Of a DNA stretch of 64,000 nucleotides, positions 44,048-61,305 are shown piece by piece; positions within the stretch are counted from its first letter, which is position 1; each line of letters starts with the position of its first letter. Origin of the DNA: an uncultured Chloroflexia bacterium (GTDB lineage: Bacteria; Chloroflexota; Anaerolineae; JAAEKA01). The notes under the pieces are model-generated. The model worked only from the letters and a program-made list of their open reading frames with translations, did not search any database and was not told the DNA's origin. The stretch covers positions 92,625 through 156,624 of the forward strand of contig CAVPPH010000001.1 in NCBI GenBank assembly GCA_963707275.1, given 5' to 3'. Both the position numbers and the translations under genes were made by a program.

Positions 44048-47000
44048 TCAATCTTGTGCAGCTAGCTGCTCATACACCGCCACCGTCCCCGGCGACGGCG
44101 GCACGCCCAGCTCGGCGCGCAGGCGTTCGACGCATTGGCCGTAGGTGCGCACGGCCTGCGTGCGGTTGCCCAGCGCGGCGTAGGCGGTCATGGTCAGCCG
44201 GTAGGCGCCTTCCCAGCAGTCGTCGGCCGCCAGGATCGACTGGCAGACGGCGATGACCTCCTGCCAGCGGCCGCGGTCGGCCAGCGCCTGGGCGACCCGG
44301 TCGGCGCTGCGCAGGAAGAGGGTCAGCAGCCGCTCCCGCTCCAGGCTGCACCACTCCTCGTAGGGATACTCGGCCAGGTAGCTGCCGCCGTAAAGCGCCA
44401 ACGCCTCGCGCAGCAGCGCCAGCCCGGCCTCTTCGTCCAGTTCGGTGCGCCGCTGGCCGTCGGCGACCCGCTGCTCGAACTGGTCGGCGTCCAGCCAGAC
44501 GTCCGCGCCGGGCCGCAGACCGTAGTGGCTGCCATCGCGCACCACGAACGCGGACGGCGTGCGCGCCTCGCGTGCCGGCTCCAGCACGCGGTAGAGGGTG
44601 TTCAGGGCGACCTTGAAATCGCGCTCGGCGGCTTCCGGGCTGAGATCGGGCCACAGCTTCTCGACGATCTCGTCGCGCTCCAGCATCCGCTGGCGCTGGG
44701 TCACGAGAAGCAGGAAGAGCTGGCGGGCCTTTTCACGCCGCCACTCCGCTGCCGCGATCTCCTCGCTGCCGCGCCAGGCACGGAACGCGCCCAGCGTTTG
44801 CACCCGCAACTGGTAGCCAGGATGCAACTCGACGCGCGCCAGTCCCAGCCTTGCCAGCAGGTTCTCAGCCAGCGGCCGCTGACGCCCCAGCGTGCGCGCC
44901 GCCAGCAGCAGCGGCACGACTTGCCGCACATCGGGTGGACCCAGCAAGGTCTGGTGCGTAAAGAGGAACTCGTAGCCGTGTTCACGTGTCAGACGCAGCA
45001 GGTCGTCCAGCCCGTGCTGCAAGCGCGCCTGGTCGCCGCCGGCCTGCCACGCCAGACACTGCCACAGCCGCACCAGCGTTTCGCCGTAGCTGTCGCTGCA
45101 CTCGTGAAACGCGCTGCCGGCTCTGCCCAGCCAGGCCAGGCCGTCCTCCAACTCGCCCGACAGGATCAGCCCAGCCGCCCAGCGCCAGCCGGATCAGCGC
45201 CACGATCCACTCGTCGCCGGTGTGGCGGGCGATCTCGATCCCTTGCAGCGCGGCCGCCTCAGCCGCTTCCGTCTCGCCCGCGTAGCCATAGGCGCGGCAG
45301 AGGCCCCAGTTGGCCTCGACCTTGAGGCGCGGCACCGCCAGGCTGTCGGCCAGCGCGATGGCCTCGCGGTAGCAGCGGCGCGCCTCGCCCTGGGCATTTG
45401 GCTCAGACCGCAGCAGCCAGGCGTGCCCCTCGCGCATCAGACCGACCGCGGTGATGAAGGGCGATTCCAGCTCGCGGCCGCGCTGCTTGCCCTGCACGGC
45501 GCTCTCGAAGGCCGCCTCGCCCTCGCCCTGAAACGCCAGCACCAGCGCCAGCAGCAGGTGGGTCTCACGATGGGCGCGCGGCCGCAGCACCGGGTCGCGC
45601 TGCTCGGTCTCGGCCCAGCGTTCCAGCAGCCGGCGCGCTTCGGCCAGCCGGCCGGTGCGCACCAGCACGCGCGCGTTGAGGTCCGCGTCGCTGGGACTTT
45701 CCTCGCGCAGTTCCCGGGCCAGCGCGCCGAAGCGTTGCGCGTCCTCCAGCTTGCCCAGGTTGAGCCGGTTTTCCTCCAGCAGCTCCAGCAGCCGGATGCG
45801 CGCCTCGCGATCTTCCAGGCCGTCGGAGATGCGCAGCGCCTCCTGCAGCAGCGTCTCGGCCTCGGCTGGGGTTGACGGTGTCGAGGTAGACGCGCGCCTG
45901 GCCGCGCAGCGCCTGCCCGAGCCGGTCCGTCTGGCCGCGCTGGCGGGCGATCCCCTCGGCCTGGCGATACCAGCCCAGCGCCTCGTCGAAGCGGCTGTGC
46001 AGGCGGGCGATGTCGCCCAGGTAGACCAGCAGCGCCGGGTGGCTTTGCAGCGTCTCCGGCGGCAGGCGGTCGATCCAGGCTGCCAGCGTGTCGAGCTGGC
46101 CGGCGCGCACCAGGCTGCGCCCAAGGCTTGCCAGCAGCAGCGGCCGCCTCGTGGATATTGCCCGGCGGCGATGCGATGATGCAGGGCGGCCTCGCGGTCA
46201 TCCAGCCGCTCGTAGCATTCAGCAGCCCGGCGGTGGCCGGCACGCGCATCGTCGTGCGCTGAGCTGTTGCGCCAGGAATTCGTGGAAAAGGTGGTGATAG
46301 CGGGCGTGCCCGCCGCCGAGATCGACGGTGAACAGGCCGTTGTCCAGCAGGTGACGCAGCAGCGCCGCGCTGTCATCGCTGCCGCGCAGGCAGTCGCAGA
46401 CGTCGGGCGACAGCTCGCGCAGCACGGCGGTGTCGCGCAGGAAGGCGCTGCACCGGCTGCGGCTGCTGGTTGACCACCTCCTGCGCCAGGAAGCCAAACA
46501 GGCTGTCGGGCGTGAGCAGCGCCGGGCCCGCGCTGGCTGGCGTCCCGACGCGCGCGGTGGCCTGCCGCGCCCGCAGTCCCTGCCACACCAGTTGCACGGC
46601 GATGGCCCAGCCTTCGGTTTCGGCCGCGATCTGCTGGACTTCGGCGCGGCTGAGCTGCAAGTCGTAGTTCTGCGCGAAGAGGGTGGCGATCTCGTCCGGC
46701 TGGAAGGCAAGGTGCCGCTGATCGATGGTGAGCACCTCTCCGCGCGCCTGCCAGCGCGCCAGCCCCGCTGATCTCCAGCGGATAGCGGGTGGCCAGCAGG
46801 AAATGAACGCCGTCGGGGGCGCGGTCGATGAGCCGGTCGAGGATGCCCAGGGTCTGGGCGTGGCCGTTGAGGAAGTGGGCGTCGTCCAGCGCAAGGAGCA
46901 GCGGCTGGCTGGGCCGGGCTAACCAGGGCGTTGACCAGCAGATCGACGGCGGCGGGCCAGGGGGGCGGCCCTTGCGCGCCCGCCTGGTTCCACGTTTCCA

Positions 47001-47290
47001 GCCGCGCCAGCGGCGCTTCGGACAGGTCAGGCAGCGCCAGGCGCAGGCTATGGAGCAGGTGCAGCAAGAACGACCAGGGGATCGGCGCTGTCGCTGTCGA
47101 GTTGGTACCACGCGAGGGGATGGCCCAGCTCGGCCACCGTTGCCAGCGCGGTGCTCTTGCCATAGCCTGCGCCGGCCTGCAGGAGGGTGACGCGATAATC
47201 CAGCGCTTCGGCCAGCGCGCTGGCCAGTCGCGGACGCGGCATGATGCGCTGGTTGGGGCGGGGTGGTGTCAGGCGGGTGCGTACCACCAC
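44048..47290 (-). pseudogene. large STAND-type transcriptional regulator: MalT-like P-loop NTPase, TPR region and C-terminal winged-helix/BTAD (SARP-like) domain; at least 8 frameshifts
   Basis: N-terminal ..RTRLTPPRPNQRIMPRPRL..LLQAGAGYGKST.. (Walker A), ..LLLALDDAHFL.. (Walker B), long TPR-like helical repeats, then ..LRVQTLGAFRAWRG..I....WRREKARQLFLLL......ERDEIVEKLWPD......FKVALNTLYRVLEP.. and a BTAD ending at 44048. The fragments are collinear across ORFs 47048..47554, 46219..47163, 46373..46894, 44982..47111, 45565..46110 and 44048..45151. The start (GTG 47290) is uncertain. Confidence 0.75.
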
Positions 47291-47304
47291 GGGTAGGGGT
47301 TCAC

Positions 47305-47341
47305 GGTTGGAGTTGCAGGTTGCAAGTTGCGGGTTGCAGGC
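47305..47341. repeat. GTTGCAG-type heptamer array at the 5' end of the regulator gene
   Basis: ggttggagttgcaggttgcaagttgcgggttgcaggc. 25 of 26 nt are identical to 18908-18934. Confidence 0.7.
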
Positions 47342-47452
47342 TTCGGAGCGCATTCCGAGCACAGACGCATTGCGCAGCAGGTATGACAGCTCCTGGATCT
47401 TCAACACTTCATGGTACTTGAGCGGGGGCCGGTTGGCAAATGGATGTGGGGA

Positions 47453-47527: not shown

Positions 47528-47637
47528 TAGTGCCCGTTGTAACTCCTGTGTCACTGCACTGTGGTAGACTATGGATGTTCACTGTCGAAAGATCCGATCT
47601 AATCGTGCTCGCTGGCCATTGAAGCCCAGAACCGTCC

Positions 47638-48945
47638 ATGACTGACACAACCATCGCCTCGTTCGTCGTCCGTTTCACAGAGGAAACGCCGGCTGCTGAT
47701 TTGCCCGGCGCAGGCTGGCGCGGCGTCGTGCAGCACGTCCAGACCAGCGAACAGGTCCGCTTCACGCGCATCGACGACGCCCTGCGTTTCATGGGCGAAT
47801 ACGTGGACCTGCACAATCCGTTGCACGAGGAGCGAGAAGGAGCGGCGCGCGGAATGACTACCTCAATGCCACCGGTCGGCATCGTCAGCGTCGGCACCTA
47901 CTCGCCTGCCAGCTATCTGACGGCGGCGGACATCGCCGCGGCCAGTGGCCTGCCGGAATGGGTGATCCGCGACAAGATGGGCATCACGCGCAAGTTCGTG
48001 GCTGGCCCCGACGACCAACCCAACGAGATGGCCATCAAGGCCGCGCTGGACTGCCTGGCGCAGACCGACATTCCCCCCGAAGAGATCGACCTCGTCATCT
48101 GCACCACCGAGGAGTGGCGCGAGTACCTGCTCTGGACATCGGGCATCCACCTGGCGCACGCGATCGGCGCGACCAACGCCTGGGCGATGGATCTGCACAT
48201 GCGCTGTGCGACCACCGTCGGCGCGATGAAGATGGCCAGGGACATGATGCTGGCCGACCCCGACCTCAACACGGTGCTGATCGCCGGCGGCTATCGCGTC
48301 TCCGACTTCATCGACTTCAGCAACGCCCGCACCTCGTTTATGTGGAACATCGGCTCGGGGGCCGGCGCGATGCTGCTGCGCAAGGGCTGGCCGCGCAACC
48401 ACGTCCTCGGCTCGCACGTCATCGTCGACGGCAGCATGAGCAAGCATGTCATCGTGCCCGCCAGCGGCACGGCGCAGTTCGCTACGCCGCAGGCGATGGC
48501 CGGCGACAACGGGGTGCCGGCCAGTCAGTTCTACTTCGATCTGGTGGAGCCGGATGCGATGAAGAGCCGCCTCAACGCGGTCAGCATGGACAACTGGCTG
48601 CACTGCGTGGACGAGGCCCTGCGCAAGAGCGGTCACAAACCGGACGGATCGCCCTACTCGCGCGCCGACATCGACTACCTGAACATGATCCTGATCAAGC
48701 CGTCCGGCCACCGCGAGATGCTGGAGCGGCTGGGGCTGGTCGAGGAGCAGTCGGTCTACCTTGGCGAGATCGGTCACACCGGCGAGCAGGACGCGATGTT
48801 CAGCATCCGCGAGGGACTGGCCGCGGGCCGGCTCAAGGACGGCGATCTGATGGCCATCGTCGCGGCCGGCATCGGCTATGTGTGGGCGGCGGGTATTGTG
48901 CGCTGGGGGGTCAGCACACGACGGTCAATGAGCGACATTGAATAG
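47638..48945 (+). CDS. KASIII (FabH)-like thiolase-superfamily enzyme with a ~75-aa N-terminal extension and a non-canonical active site
   Basis: Intact 435-aa ORF. From MPPVGIVSVGTYSP.. it aligns with FabH. The Cys position is present (HMRCATT). The HQAN region reads KPSGHRE, and GNTSAAS reads GHTGEQD (Asn to His) in my by-eye alignment to E. coli FabH. Confidence 0.7.
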   Translation: MTDTTIASFVVRFTEETPAADLPGAGWRGVVQHVQTSEQVRFTRIDDALRFMGEYVDLHNPLHEEREGAARGMTTSMPPVGIVSVGTYSPASYLTAADIAAASGLPEWVIRDKMGITRKFVAGPDDQPNEMAIKAALDCLAQTDIPPEEIDLVICTTEEWREYLLWTSGIHLAHAIGATNAWAMDLHMRCATTVGAMKMARDMMLADPDLNTVLIAGGYRVSDFIDFSNARTSFMWNIGSGAGAMLLRKGWPRNHVLGSHVIVDGSMSKHVIVPASGTAQFATPQAMAGDNGVPASQFYFDLVEPDAMKSRLNAVSMDNWLHCVDEALRKSGHKPDGSPYSRADIDYLNMILIKPSGHREMLERLGLVEEQSVYLGEIGHTGEQDAMFSIREGLAAGRLKDGDLMAIVAAGIGYVWAAGIVRWGVSTRRSMSDIE

Positions 48946-48956
48946 GAGTTGCTACC

Positions 48957-49202
48957 ATGACAAGAGCACCAAATTGGTCACGCACCGAGTTTGAAGTCGT
49001 TCTCAGCAGAAGTGATCTTTCTGACGAGGAACTTGCGGCGTTATTAGCTCAACGAACAGTCGGAGCGGTGGATGTGGTGCGTTCTGGCATTCACAGCTAC
49101 CACGCAGGAACGAATACCTCGATGCTTTCATCGATGATGAGCGATCGACTGGCTCGAAGTCAGGGCGAGGTAACCTGTCCCAAGTGTGGTTTGAAATTCT
49201 AA
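48957..49202 (+). CDS. small hypothetical protein with a C-terminal CPKCG zinc-ribbon half-site
   Basis: 81-aa ORF preceded by AGGAG. It is visibly AT-richer than the neighbouring genes. No family recognised. Confidence 0.35.
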   Translation: MTRAPNWSRTEFEVVLSRSDLSDEELAALLAQRTVGAVDVVRSGIHSYHAGTNTSMLSSMMSDRLARSQGEVTCPKCGLKF

Positions 49203-49217
49203 GCGAGGACACAAGAC

Positions 49218-49983
49218 ATGCGACTCAACGGCAAAGTAGCTCTCATCACCGGCGGAGCGGCCGGCATTGGCAAGGCGACGGCGCAGCGCTTTCAGGAAGA
49301 GGGCGCGACGGTCGTGATCTGCGACGTCAACGAGGAGGCGGGCGAGGCAGCAGTCGCCGAGCTCGGTCTGGCAGCGTTCTACAAGGTCAACGTGGCCGAC
49401 CGGCAGGACGTGCAGCGCTGGGTGGACGACGTGGTCGGCTCGCTTCGGCCGCATCGATGTGCTGGTCAACAACGCCGGCGTGTTGCGCGACGGCCGGCTG
49501 GTGGTGGTCAAGGACGGCGAGCTGGTCAAGCAGATGCCCGAGGCCGACTGGGATCTGGTGATCGGCGTCAACCTGAAGGGCGTCTTCAACTGCACGCAGG
49601 CCGTCGCGCCGGTCATGATCAAGCAGGGCAGCGGCGTCATCCTCAACGCCAGCAGCATCGTCGGCCTGGACGGCAATTTCGGCCAGACCAACTACGTGGC
49701 CACCAAGGCAGGCGTCATCGGCCTGACCAAGGTCTGGGCACGGGAGCTGGGGCGCTACGGCGTGCGCGTCAACGCCGATCGCCCCCGGCTTCACGCTGAC
49801 CGAGATGGTCCTAGCAGATGCCGGAGAAGATGCTGGCCGAGATGGTCTCCCACGTGCCGCTGGGCCGCATGGGCCAGCCACGCGACATCGCCAACGCCTA
49901 TCTGTTCCTGGCATCGGACGAAGCCAGCTATATCTCCGGCGTAGGTGCTGCGCGTCGATGGCGGAATTGTTGTCGGAACCTGA
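49218..49983 (+). pseudogene. 3-oxoacyl-(ACP/CoA) reductase, FabG-like SDR, about 3 frameshifts
   Basis: ITGGAAGIGKA, NNAGV, ..[27 protein letters not shown].. (YxxxK) and the C-terminal ..[28 protein letters not shown].. lie in shifted frames. Confidence 0.8.
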
Positions 49984-49984
49984 G

Positions 49985-50028
49985 AAATGGTTGATGGTGA
50001 ATTCGGTGAATTGGTCAATGGTTAATGT
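49985..50028. repeat. GGTGAAT/AATGGTT-type heptamer array (left arm of an inverted pair)
   Basis: aatggttgatggtgaattcggtgaattggtcaatggttaatg. Positions 50005-50023 are complementary (18 of 19) to 50437-50455. Confidence 0.7.
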
Positions 50029-50062
50029 CAGAAGGCGATGATCATGGAAAGGAGGCGGGACT

Positions 50063-50430
50063 GTGGCAAAAGGTGATGATCTAGAAGATCGGTTGATTGA
50101 TTTTGCGGTGCCAGGTGATTGACATCAGTGCGACCGGTTGCCCGATACAGCGATCGGGGCGCCATGTTTCGAGGACAACTACTGCGAAGTGGTTCTGCTG
50201 CGAGCGCCTCATTATGGTGAAGCACGAGGTGCCGAAAGCAGACGGGATTTCGCCCATAAGCTGCGAATCGGTGCTGAAAGAGCTAAACGAATCGCGCGTG
50301 TGGCTGAAGATTGCGTTGAAGGCAAAGATGCTGCCGGTGGAGGAGCTACAGCCGGTCTCTGCGCGGAGTGCGAAGCGCTATGCCGCATTCATCAGCGCCA
50401 GCATCCGAAACCGCAATCCCGCGGCCAATC
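50063..50430 (+). pseudogene. four-helix-bundle protein (23S rRNA intervening-sequence protein / Avd-like, PF05635-type), at least 2 frameshifts
   Basis: GTG at 50063 after AAGGAGG. LEDRLIDFAV.., ..HYGEARGAESRRDFAHKLRI.. (frame of 50138..) and ..VLKELNESRVWLKIALKAKMLP.. (frame of 50097..) are collinear with this family. No stop separates it from the downstream ligase frame. Confidence 0.6.
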
Positions 50431-50436
50431 GCGATC

Positions 50437-50474
50437 AACCATTCACCAATTCACCATTCACCATTCACGAATTT
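50437..50474. repeat. ATTCACC-type heptamer array (right arm of the inverted pair)
   Basis: aaccattcaccaattcaccattcaccattcacgaatt. Confidence 0.7.
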
Positions 50475-50483
50475 TCTGCCCTC

Positions 50484-54380: not shown

Positions 54381-55272
54381 ATGTCGAGAAAACCACCACC
54401 AATTCCTGAACGCAGCGGCTACTTGTCCGTCGAAAACGGCACGCGCCAGGTCTACTGGGAGTACTTCGGCCACGGCGACCGCGAGGTCGTGGTGATGCTC
54501 AACGGCGTGGCCATGTCCACCCGCGGCTGGTATCGCAACCTGCCCGAGCTGCAGCCGGACTACGACGTGCTGCTCTACGACTACCTGGGACAGGGCCGGT
54601 CGTCGCAGGAGGACGAGCCGTACTCACATCGACCATTTCGCCGAATACCTGGTGCGCATCATGGACGAGCTGGGCATCGAGCGCATCCATCCGGTGGGCG
54701 TCTCGTACGGCGGGTTCATCGCTGCCGAGCTGGGCCGGCTGTTCGGCGACCGGCTGCACACGCTGACCTTGTCGGGCATCCTGCTGACCCGCGAAGACGC
54801 AGTTCCAGATGTACCAGGATCTGTCGCTGACCTTCTACACGTCGCCCGACCCGGCCTTCGAGATCTACACGCAGTACATGTACGAGAAGATCTTCGGCGA
54901 GGCCTTCTGCCGGCGCATCTACGGTGACAAGATGGACCGGATGCGCCAGGGCTTCTTCGACGACTACCACGGCAAGGAGTACTGCCTGATCCGGCTGACC
55001 GAGGCGCAGAACCCGTTCTTTCGACCGCATCGACGGCGATCCCGACGCTGTACCGCGGCGTCACGACGCCGACGCTGGTCCTGACCGGCGATCAGGACCG
55101 CGCCATCCCGCCCTGGCAGCAGGCCAAGCTGCTGGACATCCTGCCCAACGCGCGCCAGATCATCGTGCCCGGCAGCGGCCACATGACCTACATGGAACGG
55201 CCGGACATCTTCTGGCCGGCAGTGAGAGCGTTCTTTGCAGCCAAATCTGTATCAGGAGTTTCCGAACCATGA
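54381..55272 (+). pseudogene. alpha/beta hydrolase (second type), at least 3 frameshifts
   Basis: ..VVVMLNGVAMSTRGW.., nucleophile elbow PVGVSYGG, and the C-terminal ..PTLVLTGDQDRAIPP....L...LPNARQIIVPGSGHMTYMERPD.. in a shifted frame. Its stop overlaps the next ATG (ATGA). Confidence 0.7.
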
Positions 55273-56333
55273 CGACTATCACACCTCTTGACGGCGTTTC
55301 TTCGCAGATGATCCAGACGAGTCGCCTGAACACCCACGTCTTGACCAGCGGGCCGGACGACGGTGTTCCGGTGGTGTTTCTGCATGGCAACTTCTCTGCC
55401 GCGACCTATTGGGAAGAGACGATACTGGCGCTTCCGGCCGGCTTCCGCGGCATCGCCCCCGACCTGCGCGGCTACGGCTGGACTGAGGACAAGCTGATCG
55501 ACGCGACGCGCGGTATGCGCGACTGGGTGGATGACCTGGCGGCGCTGTTCGAGGCGTTGTCCATCGAGAAGGCGCATCTGGTGGGCTGGTCGCTGGGCGG
55601 TGGCGTGGTGTTGCGCTTCATCGCCGATCACCCGGACAAGGTGCTGTCGGCGACGCTGATCGCGCCGGTGTCGCCCTACGGCTTTGGCGGTACCCGCGAT
55701 GCAGAGGGCACGCCCTGCTACACCGACTTTGCCGGTTCGGGCGGCGGCACGGTCAACCCGGAGTTCGTCAAGCGCATCATCGCCGGCGACCGCGGCACGG
55801 ACGATCCCAACTCGCCGCGCAACGTCATCAACGCCTTCTACTACAAGGCGCCCTTCCGGGCCGCGCGCGAGGAGGATTTCCTGACCGCCGCGCTGGCCGA
55901 GAAGATGGGCGACCAGCGCTATCCCGGCGACATGACCGCCTCGGAGAACTGGCCCAACGTCGCACCAGGTGTATGGGGTCCCATCAACGCCGGCTCGCCC
56001 AAATACGTGGCCGGCGACGCCGAGGCGCTGATTGCCGTCCAGCCCAAGCCGCCGATCCTGTGGATCCACGGCAGCGACGACCTGATCGTCGGCGACCTGT
56101 CCTTCTTCGACTTCGGCGCGCTGGGCAAGCTGGGCTACGTACCAGGCTGGCCGGGCGAGGACATCTACCCGCCGCAGCCCATGATCAGCCAGACGCGCGC
56201 CGTGCTGGAGCAGTACGCCGCGGCCGGCGGGCAGTATCGCGAGGTCGTCATTCAGGACACCGCCCACGGTCCGCATATCGAGAAGCCGGCGGAGTTCAAC
56301 GCGGCGTTTCATGGGCTGTTGCGCGGCTGGTAA
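55269..56333 (+). CDS. alpha/beta hydrolase (Ser nucleophile), intact paralogue of 53156..54228
   Basis: 354-aa ORF: ..VVFLHGNFSAATYWEE.., HLVGWSLGG, ..SPYGFGGTRDAEGTPCYTDFAGSGGG.. and ..AHGPHIEKPAEFN... Confidence 0.8.
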   Translation: MTTITPLDGVSSQMIQTSRLNTHVLTSGPDDGVPVVFLHGNFSAATYWEETILALPAGFRGIAPDLRGYGWTEDKLIDATRGMRDWVDDLAALFEALSIEKAHLVGWSLGGGVVLRFIADHPDKVLSATLIAPVSPYGFGGTRDAEGTPCYTDFAGSGGGTVNPEFVKRIIAGDRGTDDPNSPRNVINAFYYKAPFRAAREEDFLTAALAEKMGDQRYPGDMTASENWPNVAPGVWGPINAGSPKYVAGDAEALIAVQPKPPILWIHGSDDLIVGDLSFFDFGALGKLGYVPGWPGEDIYPPQPMISQTRAVLEQYAAAGGQYREVVIQDTAHGPHIEKPAEFNAAFHGLLRGW

Positions 56334-56378
56334 TCAGTCATCAGTTATCAGTTATCAGTGGACAGTAATAGGGTAACT
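56331..56378. repeat. ATCAGT-type heptamer array (left arm of an inverted pair)
   Basis: taatcagtcatcagttatcagttatcagtggacagtaat... Positions 56333-56360 are complementary (about 26 of 28) to 56899-56926. Confidence 0.7.
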
Positions 56379-56424
56379 GCGGTTTTGGTGCTCTGTGGAA
56401 GAAAGGGATCAGTGGTATTGCAAA

Positions 56425-56916
56425 ATGACACGACTCGCCCATGCCTTGAGCTATCGAGAGTTGATAGTGTATCAGAAGGCGAGGGACCTTTCGAGAGAGT
56501 TGTTCCATATCTCCAAATCTTTCCCGCGCGAGGAGATGTATTCGCTTACTGATCAGCTTCGACGGTCCTCTCGATCGGTAGGAGGACAAATTGCTGAAGC
56601 CTGGGCGAAGCGGCGCTATGAGAGGCATTTCGTCAGCAAACTCACTGATGCTGACGGCGAGCAGCAGGAGACGCAGCACTGGATTGATACGGCGCTGGAT
56701 TGCGAATACCTGTCTTCCCAACAACGTGATGAACTGATCGGAAAATGCGAGGAGATCGGACGCCTTCTGGGCGGCATGATTGCCAAAGCCGACCGCTTCT
56801 GTGGGAATCCTCTGCTGCCCCGCAACTTCGCGAACCTGAAATCGAGTACTATGTGGATGATCACGCCTCATTCTTCAGTGATCCAAACGAGATCCCAACT
56901 GGTAACTGATAACTGA
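56425..56916 (+). CDS. four-helix-bundle protein (23S rRNA intervening-sequence protein / Avd-like, PF05635-type)
   Basis: MTRLAHALSYRELIVYQKARDLSRELFHISKSFPREEMYSLTDQLRRSSRSVGGQIAEAW.. is the hallmark N-terminal half of this family. The ORF tail (after about 56825) reads on into the repeat array, so the true stop may be masked. Confidence 0.8.
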   Translation: MTRLAHALSYRELIVYQKARDLSRELFHISKSFPREEMYSLTDQLRRSSRSVGGQIAEAWAKRRYERHFVSKLTDADGEQQETQHWIDTALDCEYLSSQQRDELIGKCEEIGRLLGGMIAKADRFCGNPLLPRNFANLKSSTMWMITPHSSVIQTRSQLVTDN

Positions 56917-56942
56917 CGACTGATCACTGATAACTGATCACT
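56897..56942. repeat. ACTGAT-type heptamer array (right arm of the inverted pair)
   Basis: caactggtaactgataactgacgactgatcactgataactgatcac. Confidence 0.7.
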
Positions 56943-56954
56943 TTCAGGAGCCCT

Positions 56955-58509
<1,555 letters not shown>

Positions 58510-58511
58510 AA

Positions 58512-58577
58512 CAGAGACGAAAAAGGGAAACAAGGGAAAAGAGGGAAATCGGAGCGTTTCCCGGCTGTTTTCGTCCT
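58512..58577. repeat. purine-rich AAGGGAA-type repeats closed into a hairpin
   Basis: gacgaaaaagggaaacaagggaaaagagggaaatcggagcgtttcccggctgttttcgtc. The outer arms are gacgaaaa / ttttcgtc. The motif family is the same as at 8771-8840. Confidence 0.6.
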
Positions 58578-58588
58578 GATAAGGATGC

Positions 58589-59861
58589 ATGACTATGACC
58601 CAAAGAAAACTCGGCCGCGGCGTGGCAGTCGTCGGGGCCGGCATGAGCCAGTTTGGAACGTTTCCCGAGAAGGCCACGCGCGATCTGTTCGTCGAGGCCT
58701 TTCGCGAGCTGCGCGGCATCCGTGGACAAAGGACTGGACCCGCGCGACATCGAGGCGCTGTTCATCGGCAACTACAGCAGCGACCTGTTTGAGCATCAGG
58801 GCCACACGGCGCCGATCATGGCTGATTGGGTCGGGCTGACACCGCGGCCGGCGGTGCGTATCGAGGACGCCTGCGCCAGCAGCGGCGTGGCGCTGCGGCA
58901 GGGCATCATGGCGGTCGCGTCAGGGCTGCACGACGTGGTGCTGGTCGGCGGCATCGAGAAGATGAGCAACCTGCCGACGGCCGAGGTCACCGACACGCTG
59001 GCAACGGCGGGAGATGTGCTCTACGAAATACCGGCCGGCTTCACCTTCCCCGGCTTCTACGCCGCGATCGCCATCGGCCTACATGGCGCGCTACGGCGCG
59101 ACGCCCGAGGCGCTCCTTCGGGTCGGCATCAAGAACCATGAGAACGGTGCGCTGAACAGCAAGGCGCAGTTCAACGTCTCCATCGGCGGCATCATGCAGG
59201 CGCCGCCAGGCCAGCGCCGGCAAAAAAGGGCCGTCCGGTGCCGCAGTGGTCCGACGAGATGGCGTTCCTGCAGGACGACGTGTACAACCCGATGATCGCC
59301 TGGCCGCTGCGGCTGTTCGACTGCTCGCCCATCACCGACGGGGCGGCGGCGCTGCTGCTGGTATCCGAGGAGATCGCCGCCAACTTCAGCGACACGCCCA
59401 TCGCGATCATCGGCACCGGCCAGGCCAGTGACCGGGCGCTGCCCAACCGTCCCGATCTGACCAGCCTGGGCGCGGCGCGCCATGCCAGCCAGCAGGCCTA
59501 CCAGATGGCCGGCGTGACGCCGCAGGACATCAAGATCGCCGAGGTGCACGATTGCTTCACCATCGCCGAGATCGTCGCGACCGAGGATCTGGGGTTCTTC
59601 GAGCCGGGCCAGGGCTACGTGGCCGCCGAGGAAGGGCTGACGGCGCGCAACGGGCTGCGGCCGGTCAACACGTCGGGCGGGCTGAAGTCGAAGGGCCACC
59701 CGGTCGGCGCATCGGGCGCGGCGCAGGTGATCGAGGTCTGGAAGCAGATGCGCGGCGAAGCCGGCCAGCGCCAGGTCGATCGCGACGTGGACATCGCCCT
59801 GACCCACAACGTCGGCGGCACCGGGCAGACCTGTGTGGTGCACATTTTTGAGCGGCGGTAG
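58589..59861 (+). pseudogene. thiolase-like protein of the SCP-x / DUF35-associated type, at least 3 frameshifts
   Basis: ..VAVVGAGMSQFG.., ..IEDACASSGVALRQG.. (Cys), ..FDCSPITDGAAALLL.., ..EVHDCFTIAE.. (His) and ..NTSGGLKSKGHPVGASG.. are collinear across ORFs 58589.., 58653.., 59014.. and 59238..59861. Confidence 0.8.
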
Positions 59862-59970: not shown

Positions 59971-59986
59971 GATCCAGGGAGCAACA

Positions 59987-60412
59987 ATGGCTACTGAGAG
60001 CTTTACGCAAGCGGACTTTACTGGTTGGCTGGCCGAGCATAAGCTGATGGGCGCGCGCTGCCAGTCCTGTGGTGCACTCTACGCCGAGGCGCGGCCGATG
60101 TGCCCCGACTGTTTCGGCGATGACATGGCCTGGGAGCAGTTGTCGGGTCATGGCAAGCTGTCTGCGTTCACAATTGTCTACATCGCACCGACCGCCATGA
60201 TCGAAGCGGGCTACGGGCGTGACAATCCCTACGTCACCGGGATCGTAGCGCTGGACGAAGGACCCTCGATCAGCGGGCAGGTCATAGGTTTGGACGTCAG
60301 GGACGCTGCACAAGTTGCGGTAGGCATGCCTCTGCGGGCCACCTTCCTGACCCGCGGCGACGGCGATGCACGGCGAACCTTCCTGGCTTTCGAGCCTCAG
60401 TCCCAGGCATAG
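59987..60412 (+). CDS. DUF35 zinc-ribbon/OB-fold protein (thiolase partner)
   Basis: Rubredoxin-like CQSCG..x..CPDC followed by an OB-fold segment (..GKLSAFTIVY..GIVALDEGP.ISGQV..), immediately after a thiolase-like gene. Confidence 0.8.
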   Translation: MATESFTQADFTGWLAEHKLMGARCQSCGALYAEARPMCPDCFGDDMAWEQLSGHGKLSAFTIVYIAPTAMIEAGYGRDNPYVTGIVALDEGPSISGQVIGLDVRDAAQVAVGMPLRATFLTRGDGDARRTFLAFEPQSQA

Positions 60413-60435
60413 AAACAAAGCGAGAAAGTGCTGCT

Positions 60436-61305
60436 ATGACCGTCGAAGTGGGCCAGGTCGCCACCGTCAGCCGGGTGTTTACCCAGGAAGACTTCAATCG
60501 CTTCGCCGCATTGATCGGCGACGACAACCCGATCCATGTCGATCCGGCATTTGCCGCCCGCGGCAAGTTTGGTCGCACGGTGGCGCACGGCATGCTGCTT
60601 TACAGCGCCGTCAGTTCGACCTTGAGCAGCCGGTGGCCCTTTCTGGGCTGCAAGCAGTTGGTCCAGGAACTCAAGTTTCCTGCGCCGACCTATGCCGATC
60701 AGACAGTGGAGATCAGAACCGAGGTGATCGGTGTCATGCACAGCGATGGGCTGGCCGAGCTTGCGACCGAGGTCATCCAGGGGGATGGCGCGTACGGTCT
60801 GAAGGGCAAGATGCTGGTGCGGCTGCCGGGATCATCCGCCTTTCAACTTCAGGCCGCCAGCACCGGAAGCGAGGTGTTGCCACTATCCGGCGCGACGCTG
60901 CGGCATCTGGCTGTCGGACAGCGGGCCAGTTTGCAGCGCCGTTTCTCCGCCGCTGATCTGGCGGATTATGCTGATCTGATCGGTGAGCGCTGTCCGGTTT
61001 TCAGCGATGCTGACCGTGCCCGCCAGGCTGGATTTGCCGACACACCGGTGCCAGGTGCGCTGCTGGGCGGGCTTTTCTCAACGCTGCTGGGCACCCGGCT
61101 ACCCGGCTCAGGCACCAACTATCTGAAACAGCGCCTCGAGTTTCCGTCGCCCGCCTATCCTGAGCAGGACTTGACCGCCGAGGTCGAGATCGTGCGCATC
61201 CGGGCCGACAAACAACTGGTAAACCTGGCGACTCGCTGTGTCACATCATCAGGGTTGACGGTGTGCCAGGGCGAGGCGCTGGTCTTAGTCAGCGACGTTC
61301 CGTAA
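60436..61305 (+). CDS. double hot-dog MaoC-like (R)-specific enoyl-CoA hydratase/dehydratase
   Basis: Two MaoC-like halves: ..FTQEDFNRFAALIGDDNPIHVDPAFA......GRTVAHGML.. and ..FSAADLADYADLIGERCPVFSD......GFADTPVPGALL... Confidence 0.75.
   Translation: MTVEVGQVATVSRVFTQEDFNRFAALIGDDNPIHVDPAFAARGKFGRTVAHGMLLYSAVSSTLSSRWPFLGCKQLVQELKFPAPTYADQTVEIRTEVIGVMHSDGLAELATEVIQGDGAYGLKGKMLVRLPGSSAFQLQAASTGSEVLPLSGATLRHLAVGQRASLQRRFSAADLADYADLIGERCPVFSDADRARQAGFADTPVPGALLGGLFSTLLGTRLPGSGTNYLKQRLEFPSPAYPEQDLTAEVEIVRIRADKQLVNLATRCVTSSGLTVCQGEALVLVSDVP

What the first reader, a model, noticed from the sequence alone, without database searches (positions are those of the whole stretch)
44048..61305. SARP/STAND-regulated acyl-chain cluster with two atypical KASIII, two AMP-ligases, a FabG-like reductase and three hydrolases; possible head-to-head condensation or alkyl-metabolite pathway
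A ~1,080-aa MalT-type NTPase-TPR-BTAD regulator is divergent from a same-strand run of genes. The run is KASIII-like (47638), a small Zn-ribbon ORF, an SDR reductase, [4HB], AMP-ligase, KASIII-like, three alpha/beta-hydrolases, [4HB], AMP-ligase, thiolase-like, DUF35 and a double MaoC hydratase. The enzyme set (thiolase-superfamily condensing enzymes, adenylate-forming enzymes, SDR, alpha/beta-hydrolases) is the same functional inventory as OleABCD olefin/beta-lactone synthesis. It also parallels lipstatin LstA/LstB/LstC/LstD and PqsA/PqsBC alkylquinolone synthesis, and BTAD regulators are typical pathway-specific activators of secondary metabolism. It is not a canonical copy of any of these. 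The hydrolases use GxSxG Ser nucleophiles rather than the OleB-type Asp. The reductase is a classical FabG-type SDR rather than a 3-beta-HSD-type OleD. No ACP, NRPS or PKS is present. A catabolic role (activation and beta-oxidation-like shortening of an unusual acyl or steroid-like substrate) is an equally valid alternative.
Basis: inference. Interest (0 to 1): 0.75.

Follow-up and report, generated by a model that had tools for sequence, protein, structure and literature searches.

The report
Chloroflexota acid-uptake acyl-CoA operon
This is a real operon, strongly conserved in Chloroflexota, that most likely imports an organic acid and breaks it down as CoA thioesters; it is not an olefin or beta-lactone biosynthetic cluster, and its two FabH-like enzymes belong to families whose function has not been studied.

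Summary
The gene inventory is real, but the ORFs are broken by about 45 frameshifting indels, mostly +1 insertions. These look like sequencing errors, not gene decay. The 435-aa "KASIII" ORF is an artefactual fusion of a small orphan protein with KAS1.

The cluster is co-conserved as one operon in about 50 Chloroflexota genomes. The order is regulator, small protein, KAS1-SDR-ligase-hydrolase, KAS2-ligase-hydrolase-thiolase-DUF35, ligase-MaoC-crotonase-hotdog. A tandem double binding protein and LivGFHM importer genes always follow.

Distant KAS1 homologues (35-41% identity) in Spirochaetota, Desulfobacterales and Thermoflexus also sit with Liv-type importers, CoA activation and hydratases, usually under TetR.

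Every Ole-defining feature tested fails:
- Neither KASIII-like enzyme keeps the FabH/OleA Cys-His-Asn triad. KAS1 has invariant Cys-His-Asp, as in the CerJ/ChlB3 acyltransferases. KAS2 keeps only the Cys.
- The ligases are ordinary acyl-CoA synthetases; the best solved match is a feruloyl-CoA synthetase.
- The SDR is FabG-like.
- The hydrolases use Ser.

No acyl-CoA dehydrogenase, ACP or PKS is present. The most likely function is an import-coupled beta-oxidative pathway for an enoate or 3-hydroxy acid.

Side finding: the two four-helix-bundle genes are discrete insertions built like 23S rRNA intervening sequences.

The parts
44048..47300 (-). Regulator (REG). It is about 1,080-1,100 aa, with a MalT-like STAND NTPase, TPR repeats and a C-terminal wHTH + BTAD. 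It is split into at least 6 frame pieces by +1 insertions.
   Evidence: BTAD PF03704 scores 98 bits and Trans_reg_C is weak. tblastn of the intact 1100-aa orthologue L001_reg covers 44063-47290 in frames -1/-2/-3. Pfam on the orthologue gives AAA_22, WHD_MalT, TPR_MalT and BTAD. There are 17 gap openings against L025.
47638..47853 (+). Small orphan protein 'sm' (72 aa, predicted beta3-alpha fold). It is translationally coupled to KAS1 in relatives. In the window a +1 G at 47852 fuses it artefactually to KAS1.
   Evidence: Separate 71-80-aa genes are called in L001 and L004. The family has 657 homologues, no Pfam domain, and is Chloroflexota-only. The AF2 model has pLDDT 75.5 and no fold match with E<0.9. 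The insertion is listed.
47854..48945 (+). KAS1, a KASIII-fold protein of NCBIfam NF005308 (PRK06840). Cys117, His306 and Asp311 are invariant, and there is no His at the FabH His244 position.
   Evidence: NF005308 scores 411 bits against a cut-off of 315, and fabH TIGR00747 scores 93.5 against 292. Homologues are 76-92% identical. Residue counts in 88 loci are. The FabH Asn274 position aligns with His. The AF2 model and Foldseek give a generic KASIII fold.
48957..49202 (+). It is probably not a conserved gene and lies in a hypervariable KAS1-SDR spacer.
   Evidence: No Pfam hit. No tblastn hit in related loci. The spacer differs completely among the window, L025 and L021.
49218..49983 (+). 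Classical FabG/PhaB-like SDR (3-oxoacyl/3-hydroxyacyl thioester oxidoreductase), with several frameshifts.
   Evidence: adh_short hits on both pieces. The intact orthologue scores 287 bits to FabG NF004198 (cut-off 296) and 229 bits to acetoacetyl-CoA reductase. tblastn and indel data are.
49983..50483 (+). 4HB-a cassette, a roughly 500-bp insertion. It carries a frameshifted PF05635/TIGR02436 four-helix-bundle ORF (about 50063-50440) between inverted arrays of the heptamer GGTGAAT/ATTCACC. It is absent from L025, where the SDR stop overlaps the ligase start.
   Evidence: The alignment with L025 shows the clean insertion. Arms 50005-50026 and 50434-50455 are 22 nt and 91% complementary. The ends pair in both the MFE and centroid RNA folds, z = -2.8. 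tblastn to 4HB is.
50484..52020 (+). Acyl-CoA ligase 1 (ANL superfamily). The ORF list shows it fused with KAS2 because of a +1 insertion at 51948.
   Evidence: AMP-binding scores 317 bits. PRK06187 scores 458 against a cut-off of 476. The orthologue's best PDB hit is feruloyl-CoA synthetase 8wev at 371 bits, followed by FadD13 and FadD5.
52092..53098 (+). KAS2, a FabH-like protein that keeps the active-site Cys. It has Thr at the FabH His244 position and Tyr at the Asn274 position. There are 2 frameshifts.
   Evidence: tblastn finds three frame pieces at 81-88% identity to L001_KAS2. The residue-level alignment to E. coli FabH is. The C/T(S)/Y pattern holds in 14 orthologues. fabH TIGR00747 scores 167 against 292.
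53156..54228 (+). Alpha/beta-hydrolase 1 ('ABHL' type, about 350 aa, GNSLGG Ser nucleophile), frameshifted.
   Evidence: tblastn to L001_ABH1 in three frames. It is a paralogue of 55269-56333.
54381..55263 (+). Alpha/beta-hydrolase 2 (about 294 aa, weakly PcaD/enol-lactonase-like), with 4 frameshifts.
   Evidence: Abhydrolase_1 hit. The orthologue scores 98 bits to TIGR02427 pcaD, below the cut-off of 256. tblastn is.
55269..56333 (+). Alpha/beta-hydrolase 3 ('ABHL' type, 354 aa, intact, GWSLGG).
   Evidence: Abhydrolase_1 scores 83.8 bits. The best NCBIfam hit is an intracellular scl-PHA depolymerase at 83 bits, below the cut-off of 300. PDB hits are generic esterases, a PHB depolymerase and MCP hydrolases.
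56330..56945 (+). 4HB-b cassette: a four-helix-bundle ORF (56395/56425-56916) bracketed by inverted arrays of the heptamer ATCAGTT/AACTGAT.
   Evidence: PF05635 scores 107.6 bits and TIGR02436 scores 97.6 bits. Arms 56330-56366 and 56898-56934 are 37 nt at 81% complementarity, or 30 nt at 90%. A terminal stem appears in the RNA fold, z = -2.5.
56955..58509 (+). Acyl-CoA ligase 2, with a frameshift at 57775.
   Evidence: AMP-binding and AMP-binding_C hits on the two pieces. Identity to L001_lig2 is 72-84%.
58595..59861 (+). Archaeal/SCPx-type thiolase (ACAT-like), with 4 frameshifts.
   Evidence: Thiolase_N and Thiolase_C_1 hits. The orthologue scores 451 bits to PRK06064 (cut-off 420). The best PDB hit is 6esq_A, the acetoacetyl-CoA thiolase of the HMGS/ACAT/DUF35 complex, at 273 bits.
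59987..60412 (+). DUF35 protein (rubredoxin-like Zn ribbon plus OB fold), the usual partner of this type of thiolase.
   Evidence: PF12172 scores 38.8 bits and PF01796 scores 59.8 bits.
60436..61305 (+). Double hot-dog MaoC-type (R)-specific enoyl-CoA hydratase. In L004-type relatives it is two separate genes flanking a crotonase.
   Evidence: MaoC_dehydratas and FAS1_DH_region, two stretches. tblastn to L004_MaoC and L004_unk128 is.
61357..64000 (+). Tandem double Liv/HAAT-type solute-binding protein. It runs off the window end. In relatives LivG-LivF-LivH-LivM follow directly.
   Evidence: Peripla_BP_6 scores 221 bits. The second copy reads from 62802. The protein is 880 aa in L004. LivGFHM lie downstream in every locus that reaches that far. 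PDB relatives are R. palustris SBPs, including aromatic-acid binders.

Best explanation
This is one regulated operon for uptake and CoA-dependent, oxygen-independent breakdown of an imported organic acid or its ester.

Shown:
- The genes are co-conserved in this order across Chloroflexota.
- The operon ends in an SBP-dependent Liv/HAAT ABC importer.
- It encodes two or three ordinary acyl-CoA synthetases, (R)-specific MaoC hydratases (plus a crotonase in relatives), a FabG/PhaB-type 3-hydroxyacyl/3-oxoacyl thioester oxidoreductase, and an archaeal-type thiolase with its DUF35 partner.
- It encodes no acyl-CoA dehydrogenase, ACP, PKS or NRPS.

Inferred pathway:
- The STAND/TPR/BTAD regulator senses the substrate or an intermediate and activates transcription.
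- The acid is imported. Cytoplasmic Ser-hydrolases open ester, lactone or thioester bonds.
- Each freed carboxylate is converted to its CoA thioester by its own ligase.
- Because no dehydrogenase step is encoded, the substrate enters at the enoyl or 3-hydroxy level. Candidates are a cinnamate-type enoate or a (R)-3-hydroxy acid or oligo-ester.
- It is hydrated by MaoC/ECH, oxidised by the SDR and cleaved by the thiolase/DUF35 pair to acetyl-CoA plus a shortened acyl-CoA.

The two KASIII-fold proteins are not condensing enzymes of the FabH/OleA type. KAS1 (Cys-His-Asp) most likely forms an acyl-Cys intermediate. It then either transfers the acyl group between CoA and another acceptor or cleaves a thioester, ester or beta-keto bond. 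KAS2 keeps only the Cys and is often next to ligase-hydrolase-thiolase-DUF35. It may act as a partner subunit. The exact substrate and the KAS reactions are unknown.
For: Synteny in about 50 Chloroflexota loci runs REG-sm-KAS1-SDR-lig-(KAS2-lig-ABH-THL-DUF35)-(lig-MaoC-ECH-hotdog)-SBP-SBP. Among 47 loci with at least 8 kb downstream of KAS1, a ligase is present in 46, the SDR in 40 and an ABHL in 30.

LivGFHM lie directly after the SBP in every locus that extends that far.

Distant KAS1 homologues (35-41% identity) sit in importer operons in other lineages. In Desulfobacterales the order is ligase-ECH-LivGFHM-KAS. An unassigned metagenome has ACAD-MaoC-KAS-LivHMGF-ligase-SBP-TetR. Rectinema has KAS-SDR-SBP-LivHMGF-ABH-ABH plus TetR, KAS2-like and a CoA-transferase. 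Thermoflexus hugenholtzii has TetR-ABH-lig-SDR-ABH-lig-KAS-MaoC-SBP-LivGFHM. A further locus is similar.

The ligases are acyl-CoA synthetases. L004 lig2 scores 514 against the PRK06187 cut-off of 476, and lig1's best solved relative is a feruloyl-CoA synthetase at 371 bits. The thiolase scores 451 against 420 for PRK06064 and 273 bits to 6esq_A. DUF35 and MaoC domains are confirmed. SBP relatives include aromatic-acid binders from R. palustris.

No ACAD is found in any Chloroflexota locus. The KAS catalytic residues are documented, and the Cys-His-Asp triad of ChlB3/CerJ is described in PMC9573744.
Against: Gene content alone cannot fix the direction. KS-like + KR + DH is also an elongation set.

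Three ATP-consuming ligases are costly for catabolism.

No catabolic pathway is known that uses KASIII-fold enzymes, so their role here is unexplained.

BTAD regulators are best known from secondary metabolism.

The substrate is not identified. The hints are weak: the feruloyl-CoA-synthetase-like ligase, hydrolase hits to PHA depolymerase and PcaD that are all below cut-off, and the SBP relatives.

No experimental or expression data exist for any member. A search for PRK06840 in the literature returned nothing.
Confidence: 0.6

Rival explanations
1. Anabolic use of an imported precursor. A short, branched or aromatic acid is imported and activated by a ligase. KAS1/KAS2 then extend it or transfer it (KS/acyltransferase + KR + DH chemistry on CoA). 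The product would be a 3-hydroxy or enoyl acid, an ester lipid or a signalling molecule, released by the hydrolases.
For: Each KAS is paired with its own ligase (KAS1-SDR-lig and KAS2-lig) in nearly all loci. Distant KAS1 homologues carry His at both the FabH His244 and Asn274 positions, a KAS I/II-like Cys-His-His arrangement. The SDR is FabG/PhaB-like, within 9 bits of the FabG cut-off. KAS1 is conserved at 65-95% identity, higher than its neighbours. The CerJ/ChlB3-type triad belongs to biosynthetic acyltransferases.
Against: There is no ACP, no malonyl-CoA supply gene and no enoyl reductase. The Chloroflexota KAS1 clade has lost the first His. The thiolase/DUF35 pair, three ligases and three or four hydrolases are superfluous for primer elongation. 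TetR-regulated importer operons with an ACAD in other phyla look catabolic.
Confidence: 0.2
2. A PhlACB / HMGS-ACAT-DUF35-like tripartite complex. KAS2 (or KAS1), the thiolase and DUF35 would assemble into a C-C acyltransferase. It would add or remove acyl groups on a cyclic poly-beta-keto or phenolic substrate (Friedel-Crafts-type or the reverse). This step could sit within either a catabolic or a biosynthetic route.
For: The thiolase is closest to the ACAT of the archaeal complex (6esq_A, 273 bits) and also hits PhlC (105-120 bits). A DUF35 partner is present. KAS2-lig-ABH-THL-DUF35 is a recurrent block in L038, L050, L070, L073, L092 and L093. Such complexes are known to be repurposed (PMC12960953).
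Against: KAS1 and KAS2 score far below the HMGS model (48 and 66 bits against a cut-off of 244). No PhlA hit passed E 1e-5 for KAS1 or 1e-3 for KAS2. THL-DUF35 occurs without KAS2 in the L004-type loci, and KAS1 occurs without THL-DUF35 in other phyla. Thiolase + DUF35 pairs also work alone, as in BbsAB.
Confidence: 0.1
3. One reading: an OleABCD / lipstatin / nocardiolactone / Pqs-like biosynthetic cluster. It would make an olefin, beta-lactone or alkyl metabolite by head-to-head condensation, under a SARP-type pathway-specific activator.
For: The functional inventory is the same: two thiolase-superfamily enzymes, ANL enzymes, an SDR and alpha/beta-hydrolases. A BTAD regulator is adjacent in about two-thirds of loci. 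KAS2 hits OleA and PqsD structures at 78-82 bits.
Against: KAS1 and KAS2 lack the Cys-His-Asn triad that OleA, LstA/B and PqsD keep. KAS2 is closer to FabH (146 bits) than to OleA. The ligases fall in acyl-CoA synthetase families. The SDR is classical FabG-type and the hydrolases use Ser. The operon includes an importer, thiolase/DUF35 and hydratases that have no role in Ole/Lst chemistry.
Confidence: 0.05
4. A decaying, pseudogenised cluster with no current function in this organism.
For: Nearly every gene in 44048-61305 carries frameshifts.
Against: The indels are overwhelmingly single-base insertions spread evenly and not in homopolymers. Protein identity stays at 80-90% on both sides of each shift. 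ORFs across the rest of the window are equally fragmented. Orthologues in about 50 genomes are intact.
Confidence: 0.03

Closest known systems
Importer-linked CoA-dependent catabolic operons. Examples are the R. palustris pim/bad/cou-type clusters with Liv/HAAT transporters, and the CoA-dependent beta-oxidative hydroxycinnamate pathway (ligase, hydratase, SDR, thiolase/thioesterase). This comparison rests on my own knowledge of those pathways.
   Same: An SBP-dependent Liv-type importer lies in the operon. The operon has dedicated acyl-CoA ligases, with the best solved relative a feruloyl-CoA synthetase. It has a hydratase, an SDR dehydrogenase and a thiolase. No ACAD is needed if the substrate is already an enoate. 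Regulation is by a ligand-sensing activator here and by TetR in distant versions.
   Different: It contains two KASIII-fold proteins, three or four Ser-hydrolases and a conserved orphan small protein. None of these has a counterpart in the known pathways. The thiolase is the archaeal ACAT/DUF35 type. The substrate is unknown.
KSIII-like acyltransferases CerJ / ChlB3 (and DpsC)
   Same: KAS1 has the KASIII fold with an invariant Cys plus a His-x4-Asp motif in the loop where FabH has Asn274. The ungapped hit spans map His306 to ChlB3 His296 and Asp311 to ChlB3 Asp301.
   Different: Sequence similarity is very low (E from 1e-8 to 0.9), and FabH structures score better. There is no ACP, PKS or sugar-tailoring context. 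KAS1 sits in an importer/beta-oxidation operon. In some distant family members Ser or Gly replaces the Cys.
Archaeal HMGS/ACAT/DUF35 complex and its repurposed bacterial versions (PhlACB, streptococcal reutericyclin ATase)
   Same: There is an ACAT-type thiolase (273 bits to 6esq_A) with an adjacent DUF35. A thiolase-superfamily third protein (KAS2) is often encoded two or three genes upstream.
   Different: The third protein is FabH-like, not HMGS- or PhlA-like, and lacks the Glu-Cys-His triad. The trio is not obligatory in relatives. The extra ligases, hydrolases and importer are not part of those systems.
OleABCD / LstABCD / NltABCD (olefin and beta-lactone synthesis)
   Same: The list of protein superfamilies is the same: thiolase-superfamily, ANL, SDR and alpha/beta-hydrolase.
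   Different: Every defining feature tested differs: the catalytic triad of the condensing enzyme, the ligase clade, the SDR subclass and the hydrolase nucleophile. The context also adds an importer, hydratases and thiolase/DUF35.
23S rRNA intervening sequences (IVS) carrying an S23p/four-helix-bundle ORF (Leptospira, Coxiella). This applies to the two 4HB cassettes only.
   Same: They are elements of about 430-620 nt. Each has a PF05635-family ORF enclosed by terminal inverted repeats that fold into a stem of about 25-40 bp.
   Different: They lie between protein-coding genes of an mRNA operon, not in 23S rRNA helices. The arms are arrays of tandem heptamers, and the heptamer sequence differs from copy to copy.

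Membership tests
OleABCD / Lst / Nlt | OleA-type condensing enzyme with a Cys-His-Asn triad (plus Glu from the partner subunit) | tested here: not met
   KAS2 has Cys kept, Thr for His244 and Tyr for Asn274 (14 orthologues). KAS1 has Cys kept, no His at the His244 position and His for Asn274.
OleABCD / Lst / Nlt | OleC-type beta-lactone synthetase rather than an acyl-CoA synthetase | tested here: not met
   The best families are acyl-CoA ligases. L004 lig2 scores 514 against the PRK06187 cut-off of 476, and window lig1 scores 458. The best solved relatives are a feruloyl-CoA synthetase, FadD13 and FadD5. No OleC reference sequence was compared directly.
OleABCD / Lst / Nlt | OleD-type reductase of the 3-beta-HSD / extended SDR class | tested here: not met
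   It is a classical SDR: Pfam adh_short, 287 bits to FabG NF004198 and 229 bits to acetoacetyl-CoA reductase.
OleABCD / Lst / Nlt | OleB-type alpha/beta-hydrolase with an Asp nucleophile | tested here: not met
   The nucleophile elbows are GNSLGG, GWSLGG and GHSMGG, read directly from the translations.
Housekeeping FabH (KASIII) | Score above the TIGR00747 cut-off and a Cys-His-Asn triad | tested here: not met
   KAS1 scores 93.5 and KAS2 167 against a cut-off of 292. The triad residues are missing.
NCBIfam NF005308 (PRK06840, '3-oxoacyl-ACP synthase', uncharacterised) | Whole-protein score above the curated cut-off | tested here: met
   KAS1 scores 411 bits against a cut-off of 315. KAS2 scores 157 bits and is not a member.
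KSIII-like acyltransferases (CerJ/ChlB3 type) | Cys-His-Asp triad with His-x4-Asp in the FabH Asn274 loop | tested here: met
   Cys117, His306 and Asp311 are invariant in 88 loci. G305, H306 and D311 are invariant across 22 distant family members. The spans of the ChlB3 hit place His306 on His296 and Asp311 on Asp301. The triad is defined in PMC9573744.
KSIII-like acyltransferases (CerJ/ChlB3 type) | Membership of that clade by overall sequence or structure | tested here: inconclusive
   CerJ scores E 1.7e-8 and DpsC 1e-6 on the N-terminal part only, while FabH scores 1e-19. Foldseek gives all KASIII subfamilies similar scores. No phylogeny was built.
KSIII-like acyltransferases (CerJ/ChlB3 type) | Works with an ACP or PKS partner encoded nearby | tested here: not met
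   No ACP or PKS appears among the genes called within +/-10 kb in the loci inspected.
HMGS/ACAT/DUF35 complexes (incl. PhlACB) | ACAT/SCPx-type thiolase plus a DUF35 protein encoded together | tested here: met
   The thiolase scores 273 bits to 6esq_A and 451 against 420 for PRK06064. DUF35 shows PF12172 + PF01796. The two genes are adjacent in 21-22 of 47 loci.
HMGS/ACAT/DUF35 complexes (incl. PhlACB) | HMGS- or PhlA-type third subunit | tested here: not met
   Against NF003274 HMGS, KAS1 scores 48 bits and KAS2 66 bits (cut-off 244). No PhlA chain appears among the PDB hits.
HMGS/ACAT/DUF35 complexes (incl. PhlACB) | Physical tripartite complex | not testable with these tools
   This needs co-purification or multimer modelling.
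Liv/HAAT importer-linked acyl-CoA catabolic operon | SBP plus permease and ATPase genes in the same transcription unit as the CoA ligase and beta-oxidation-type enzymes | tested here: met
   The window shows the double SBP before it ends. Relatives show SBP-LivG-LivF-LivH-LivM on the same strand.
Liv/HAAT importer-linked acyl-CoA catabolic operon | Complete beta-oxidation set including an acyl-CoA dehydrogenase | tested here: not met
   A hydratase, dehydrogenase and thiolase are present, but no ACAD is found in any Chloroflexota locus. The nearest ACAD-like sequence in the window is at 22166-23009.
Liv/HAAT importer-linked acyl-CoA catabolic operon | Substrate-dependent induction, or growth on the substrate | not testable with these tools
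   No cultured carrier with data was found. The Thermoflexus paper does not mention the cluster.
SARP (AfsR-type) regulators | BTAD domain | tested here: met
   PF03704 scores 98 bits against a cut-off of 22. NF041231 BagI/FevR scores only 42 bits against a cut-off of 500.
SARP (AfsR-type) regulators | N-terminal OmpR-type wHTH + BTAD followed by the NTPase/TPR (AfsR domain order) | tested here: not met
   The order is reversed: the MalT-like NTPase and TPR come first, and a weak Trans_reg_C (20 bits, below cut-off) plus BTAD lie at the C-terminus.

The most novel reading that the evidence does not exclude
KAS1, a PRK06840-family KASIII fold with a Cys-His-Asp triad, and KAS2 would catalyse a reaction type not yet known in catabolism. 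One possibility is CoA-dependent (thiolytic) cleavage or transacylation of an ester or beta-dicarbonyl bond. KAS2, the thiolase and DUF35 might form a PhlACB-like complex. Together they would define a new oxygen-independent route by which abundant, uncultured filamentous Chloroflexota consume a specific class of organic acids or oligo-esters.
Probability: 0.15. Interest if true: 0.7.

Novelty: new variant of a known kind. Interest (0 to 1): 0.4.

Why it matters
The operon occurs in at least 165 species-level genomes, nearly all of them uncultured Anaerolineae, Caldilineales, Ardenticatenaceae or Promineifilaceae. These lineages dominate activated sludge, sediments and sponges, and their carbon sources are poorly known. 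Its central enzyme is one of the most conserved proteins in the locus, at 65-95% identity across orders. The operon is therefore likely to encode an ecologically important substrate-utilisation trait.

The KAS1 family has no characterised member, and it is linked to Liv-type importers in several phyla. Identifying its reaction would assign a function to a whole NCBIfam family and might add a new reaction type to the thiolase superfamily.

For genome mining, this is a cautionary case. An Ole/Lst-like enzyme inventory with a BTAD regulator is not a biosynthetic cluster.

Tried and rejected
- An exact-sequence look-up of hydrolase 3 in the public contig index found nothing.
- Literature searches found no paper on this cluster or family. 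I tried DUF35/KASIII/CoA ligase, Chloroflexi terms and 'PRK06840'. One search failed on syntax. The Thermoflexus hugenholtzii metabolism paper does not mention the operon.
- A genome scan with the distant-homologue alignment A1 failed because no conserved stretch was found. I used the Chloroflexota-level alignment A2 instead.
- The AF2 model of KAS1 with Foldseek against the PDB gave only the generic KASIII fold. FabH, BioZ, PqsC and OleA all scored within E 1e-27 to 1e-23, so structure could not assign a subfamily.
- The AF2 model of the small protein matched no known fold.
- Hydrolase, crotonase and SBP family scans gave only sub-threshold or generic hits: PcaD, PHA depolymerase, alternative oxepin-CoA hydrolase and R. 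palustris SBPs. The substrate could not be named.
- I rejected the HMG-CoA synthase reading for KAS1/KAS2 (scores far below cut-off).
- I rejected the housekeeping FabH reading (triad missing).
- I rejected pseudogenisation (the indel pattern indicates sequencing error).
- I rejected the 'Zn-ribbon ORF' as a conserved gene.

Full report
OBSERVATION

The window has about 63% G+C, and its proteins match Chloroflexota MAGs best. The ORF map is badly fragmented, however. tblastn with intact orthologous proteins from two related contigs (L001, L004) rebuilds each gene across two to six reading frames.

The nearest relative is L025, an Anaerolineales MAG (JACKBI010000003.1). It is about 90% identical in DNA and collinear from 44070 to at least 59236. 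Against L025 the window has 48 indels. Of these, 45 are not multiples of three, about 38 are single-base insertions in the window, and only 4 lie in homopolymers. Protein identity stays at 80-90% on both sides of each shift. ORFs elsewhere in the window are just as fragmented. The frameshifts are therefore read or assembly errors, not gene decay.

- The 435-aa 'KASIII' ORF at 47638 is an artefact. A +1 G at 47852 fuses a separate, conserved 72-aa protein ('sm') to KAS1, which starts at 47854. In relatives the two genes overlap by ATGA.
- The 'Zn-ribbon ORF' (48957-49202) has a single CxxC, no family match and no homologue in 95 related loci. It lies in a spacer that differs completely even between close relatives.

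CONSERVATION

KAS1 homologues at 76-92% identity are abundant in Chloroflexota metagenome bins. A scan of one genome per species found 165 genomes with a relative. Nearly all are Anaerolineae, Caldilineales, Ardenticatenaceae or Promineifilaceae.

I ran tblastn with all reference proteins against 93 fetched loci. This gave a consistent operon in about 50 of them:
- the regulator (REG) and sm;
- module A: KAS1-SDR-ligase-hydrolase;
- module B: KAS2-ligase-hydrolase-thiolase-DUF35;
- module C: ligase-MaoC-crotonase-second hot-dog;
- one or two solute-binding proteins.

Among 47 loci with at least 8 kb downstream of KAS1, a ligase is present in 46, the SDR in 40, an 'ABHL' hydrolase in 30, KAS2 in 23 and thiolase/DUF35 in 21-22. 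Many of these loci end before the distal genes. REG is adjacent in roughly two-thirds of the loci listed. It is divergent in the window's close relatives and co-directional in the others.

Wherever a locus extends past the binding protein, LivG-LivF-LivH-LivM homologues follow on the same strand. In the window the binding protein is the first half of a tandem double SBP that runs off the end. It is an 880-aa gene in L004. This is a genuine functional unit.

WHAT THE PARTS ARE

KAS1. It passes the curated cut-off of NCBIfam NF005308/PRK06840 (411 against 315 bits) and fails FabH (93.5 against 292). No paper mentions this family. At 50% clustering the family is small, with 108 clusters at E<1e-30. 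The Chloroflexota clade is essentially a single cluster, and its next relatives are only 35-41% identical.

KAS1 catalytic residues. The FabH Cys is kept. The FabH His244 position is Leu/Ile. The FabH Asn274 position is an invariant His, followed five residues later by an invariant Asp. Cys117, His306 and Asp311 are each present in 88 of 88 loci. This Cys / His-x4-Asp arrangement is the triad of the KSIII-like acyltransferases ChlB3 (Cys113/His296/Asp301) and CerJ (PMC9573744). The ungapped hit spans place KAS1 His306 on ChlB3 His296 and Asp311 on Asp301. Overall similarity to those enzymes is very low, and Foldseek cannot separate KASIII subfamilies. The resemblance is therefore at the level of the catalytic motif and does not establish clade membership. 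In some distant family members the Cys is replaced by Ser or Gly. That fits acyl-enzyme chemistry better than Claisen condensation.

KAS2. It is closer to FabH (146 bits) than to OleA or PqsD (78-82 bits). It keeps only the Cys. His244 is replaced by Thr and Asn274 by Tyr, seen in a residue-level alignment to E. coli FabH and in all 14 clear orthologues.

Ligases. These are ordinary acyl-CoA synthetases. One orthologue passes the PRK06187 cut-off (514 against 476), and window ligase 1 scores 458. The best solved relative of ligase 1 is a feruloyl-CoA synthetase (371 bits), followed by FadD13 and FadD5.

Other enzymes:
- The SDR is FabG/PhaB-like (287 against a cut-off of 296).
- The thiolase passes PRK06064 (451 against 420). 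[quoted passage not shown] The next gene is a bona fide DUF35.
- The last enzyme is a double MaoC hot-dog.
- The hydrolases have Ser nucleophiles and give only sub-threshold hits to PcaD, PHA depolymerases and MCP hydrolases.
- The SBP's solved relatives are R. palustris Liv-type proteins, including aromatic-acid binders.
- No acyl-CoA dehydrogenase occurs in any Chloroflexota locus. No ACP, PKS or NRPS is called in any inspected locus.

CONTEXT OF DISTANT HOMOLOGUES

This is the most informative evidence for function. KAS1 relatives at 35-41% identity in other lineages are again embedded in Liv-type importer operons with CoA activation and hydratases:
- Desulfobacterales: ligase-ECH-LivGFHM-KAS.
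- An unassigned lineage: ACAD-MaoC-KAS-LivHMGF-ligase-SBP-TetR.
- Rectinema (Spirochaetota): KAS-SDR-SBP-LivHMGF-ABH-ABH, divergent from TetR, a KAS2-like gene and a CoA-transferase.
- Thermoflexus hugenholtzii, which is cultured: TetR-ABH-ligase-SDR-ABH-ligase-KAS-MaoC-SBP-LivGFHM.
- A further locus: MaoC-TetR-KAS-FMN reductase-ligase-SBP-LivHMGF-SBP-KAS.

An SBP-dependent importer with TetR control, ligases and hydratases is the signature of substrate utilisation, not of secondary-metabolite synthesis.

MECHANISM

Shown:
- The operon structure and the importer.
- The enzyme families.
- The absence of an ACAD, ACP or PKS.
- The absence of the FabH/OleA catalytic dyad.

Inferred:
- The regulator is a STAND-type NTPase with a TPR sensor and a C-terminal wHTH/BTAD output. 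It activates the operon in response to the substrate.
- The acid, or an ester of it, is imported. Cytoplasmic Ser-hydrolases open ester, lactone or thioester bonds.
- Each carboxylate is thioesterified by its own ligase.
- Because there is no dehydrogenase, the substrate probably enters at the enoyl or 3-hydroxy level.
- MaoC (with a crotonase in relatives) hydrates or epimerises it. The FabG-like SDR oxidises the (R)-3-hydroxyacyl-CoA. Thiolase/DUF35 releases acetyl-CoA.

Two candidate substrate classes fit, and the evidence for both is weak:
- Cinnamate-type enoates. Supporting hints are the feruloyl-CoA-synthetase-like ligase, the aromatic-acid-type SBP relatives, and the use of thiolase/DUF35 for aromatic beta-keto-CoAs in BbsAB.
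- (R)-3-hydroxyalkanoates or their oligo-esters. Supporting hints are the PhaB/PhaJ-like SDR and MaoC and the faint PHA-depolymerase-like hydrolase hits.

The KASIII-fold proteins remain the unexplained core. KAS1 probably forms an acyl-Cys intermediate and transfers or cleaves an acyl group. KAS2 may be a partner subunit, possibly of thiolase/DUF35. I put this overall reading at about 0.6.

RIVALS

- Anabolic use of an imported precursor (about 0.2). This cannot be excluded, because KS-like + KR + DH is also an elongation set and each KAS is paired with its own ligase.
- A PhlACB/HMGS-ACAT-DUF35-like complex (about 0.1). It is compatible with either direction.
- The Ole/Lst/Pqs reading (about 0.05). 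It fails every defining feature tested.
- Pseudogenisation (about 0.03). The indel pattern contradicts it.

COMPARISON AND NOVELTY

The general kind of system, an importer-linked CoA-dependent pathway, is well known. The composition is not described. It has two non-canonical KASIII-fold proteins, an orphan small protein, multiple hydrolases, an archaeal-type thiolase/DUF35 and no ACAD. The KAS1 family has no characterised member. I rate it a new variant of a known kind, of moderate interest. It matters mainly because it is so widespread and conserved in uncultured Chloroflexota.

SIDE FINDING

Both four-helix-bundle (PF05635/TIGR02436) genes of the window lie in this operon, and there are no other copies in the window. 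Both are discrete insertions.
- Cassette 4HB-a (49983-50483) is absent from L025, where the SDR stop codon overlaps the ligase start codon.
- Each cassette is bracketed by inverted arrays of a tandem heptamer: GGTGAAT/ATTCACC for 4HB-a and ATCAGTT/AACTGAT for 4HB-b.
- Three of four cassettes examined in L001 and L004 have the same anatomy, each with a different heptamer.
- The ends pair into a long terminal stem in both the MFE and centroid RNA folds (z = -2.8 and -2.5).
- Among orthologous operons the cassettes sit in different spacers.

This is the anatomy of 23S rRNA intervening sequences that carry an S23p ORF and are excised by RNase III (PMC4990558). Here, though, it lies inside an mRNA operon. 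I have not tested whether the stems are cleaved or how the cassettes move.

Noticed in passing
window 49983-50483 and 56330-56945; also L001 6937-7441 and 14476-15008, and L004 11058-11518: The four-helix-bundle (23S rRNA IVS protein family) genes are discrete cassettes of about 500-620 bp. Each is flanked by inverted arrays of a tandem heptamer, and the heptamer sequence differs between cassettes. The arms fold into a terminal stem of about 25-40 bp. One cassette is cleanly absent from the closest relative, and the cassettes occupy different intergenic spacers in orthologous operons. The anatomy matches rRNA intervening sequences, but the cassettes sit inside an mRNA operon. The heptamer arrays recall cyanobacterial STRR repeats (from my own knowledge).
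   Followed up: partly
window 44070-59236, and probably the whole window: The sequence carries about one indel per 330 bp relative to a 90%-identical relative. Nearly all are single-base insertions outside homopolymers. This pattern is typical of uncorrected long-read insertion errors. Any ORF-based reading of this window needs frameshift-tolerant methods.
   Followed up: yes
window 47638-47853: A conserved orphan small protein (61-129 aa among the hits listed) lies between the regulator and KAS1. Its motif is SF(V/I)xRF...WRG(V/L)(V/I)xH(V/I)Q(T/S)...RF(T)...AL(R)F. It has 657 homologues, all Chloroflexota-type, with no Pfam family. The predicted fold is three strands and a helix, with no structural match. 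It is translationally coupled to KAS1, and its role is unknown (subunit, chaperone or regulator partner).
   Followed up: partly
window 48946-49217; L025 11043-11177; L021 11046-11798: The KAS1-SDR spacer is hypervariable between close relatives. It is 300 bp with an unconserved 81-aa ORF in the window. In L025 it is a 134-bp heptamer-repeat remnant (CAGTAAT-type). In L021 it is a roughly 750-bp unrelated insertion. Intergenic spacers of this operon appear to be insertion hot spots.
   Followed up: partly
window 61357-64000: The solute-binding protein is a tandem duplication. The two Peripla_BP_6 domains are near-identical in places and fused into one 880-aa protein in relatives. The stop codon at 62826 in the window is probably another sequencing error.
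   Followed up: partly
window 38000-44000: A lower-GC stretch (52-58%, against about 63% elsewhere) lies just upstream of the regulator. It carries unrelated accessory genes: RlaP (39002-39787), rhodanese (39887-40708), AlkZ-related (40727-41377), a rifampin ADP-ribosyltransferase Arr (41401-41832) and an Abi_C abortive-infection protein (42047-42838). It looks like a variable island and is not part of the operon.
   Followed up: no
KAS1 across loci L014-L093: KAS1 is the most conserved protein of the operon, at 65-95% identity across Chloroflexota orders. Against L004 it is 80% identical, compared with 47-77% for its neighbours. A few hits come from bins labelled Ignavibacteriales, KSB1, Longimicrobiales, Bipolaricaulota and Marinicellaceae. 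These could reflect horizontal transfer or mis-binning.
   Followed up: no
window 22166-23009 (minus strand): This is the only acyl-CoA-dehydrogenase-like sequence in the window (about 30% identity to the ACAD of L011). It lies 21 kb from the operon and was not examined further.
   Followed up: no
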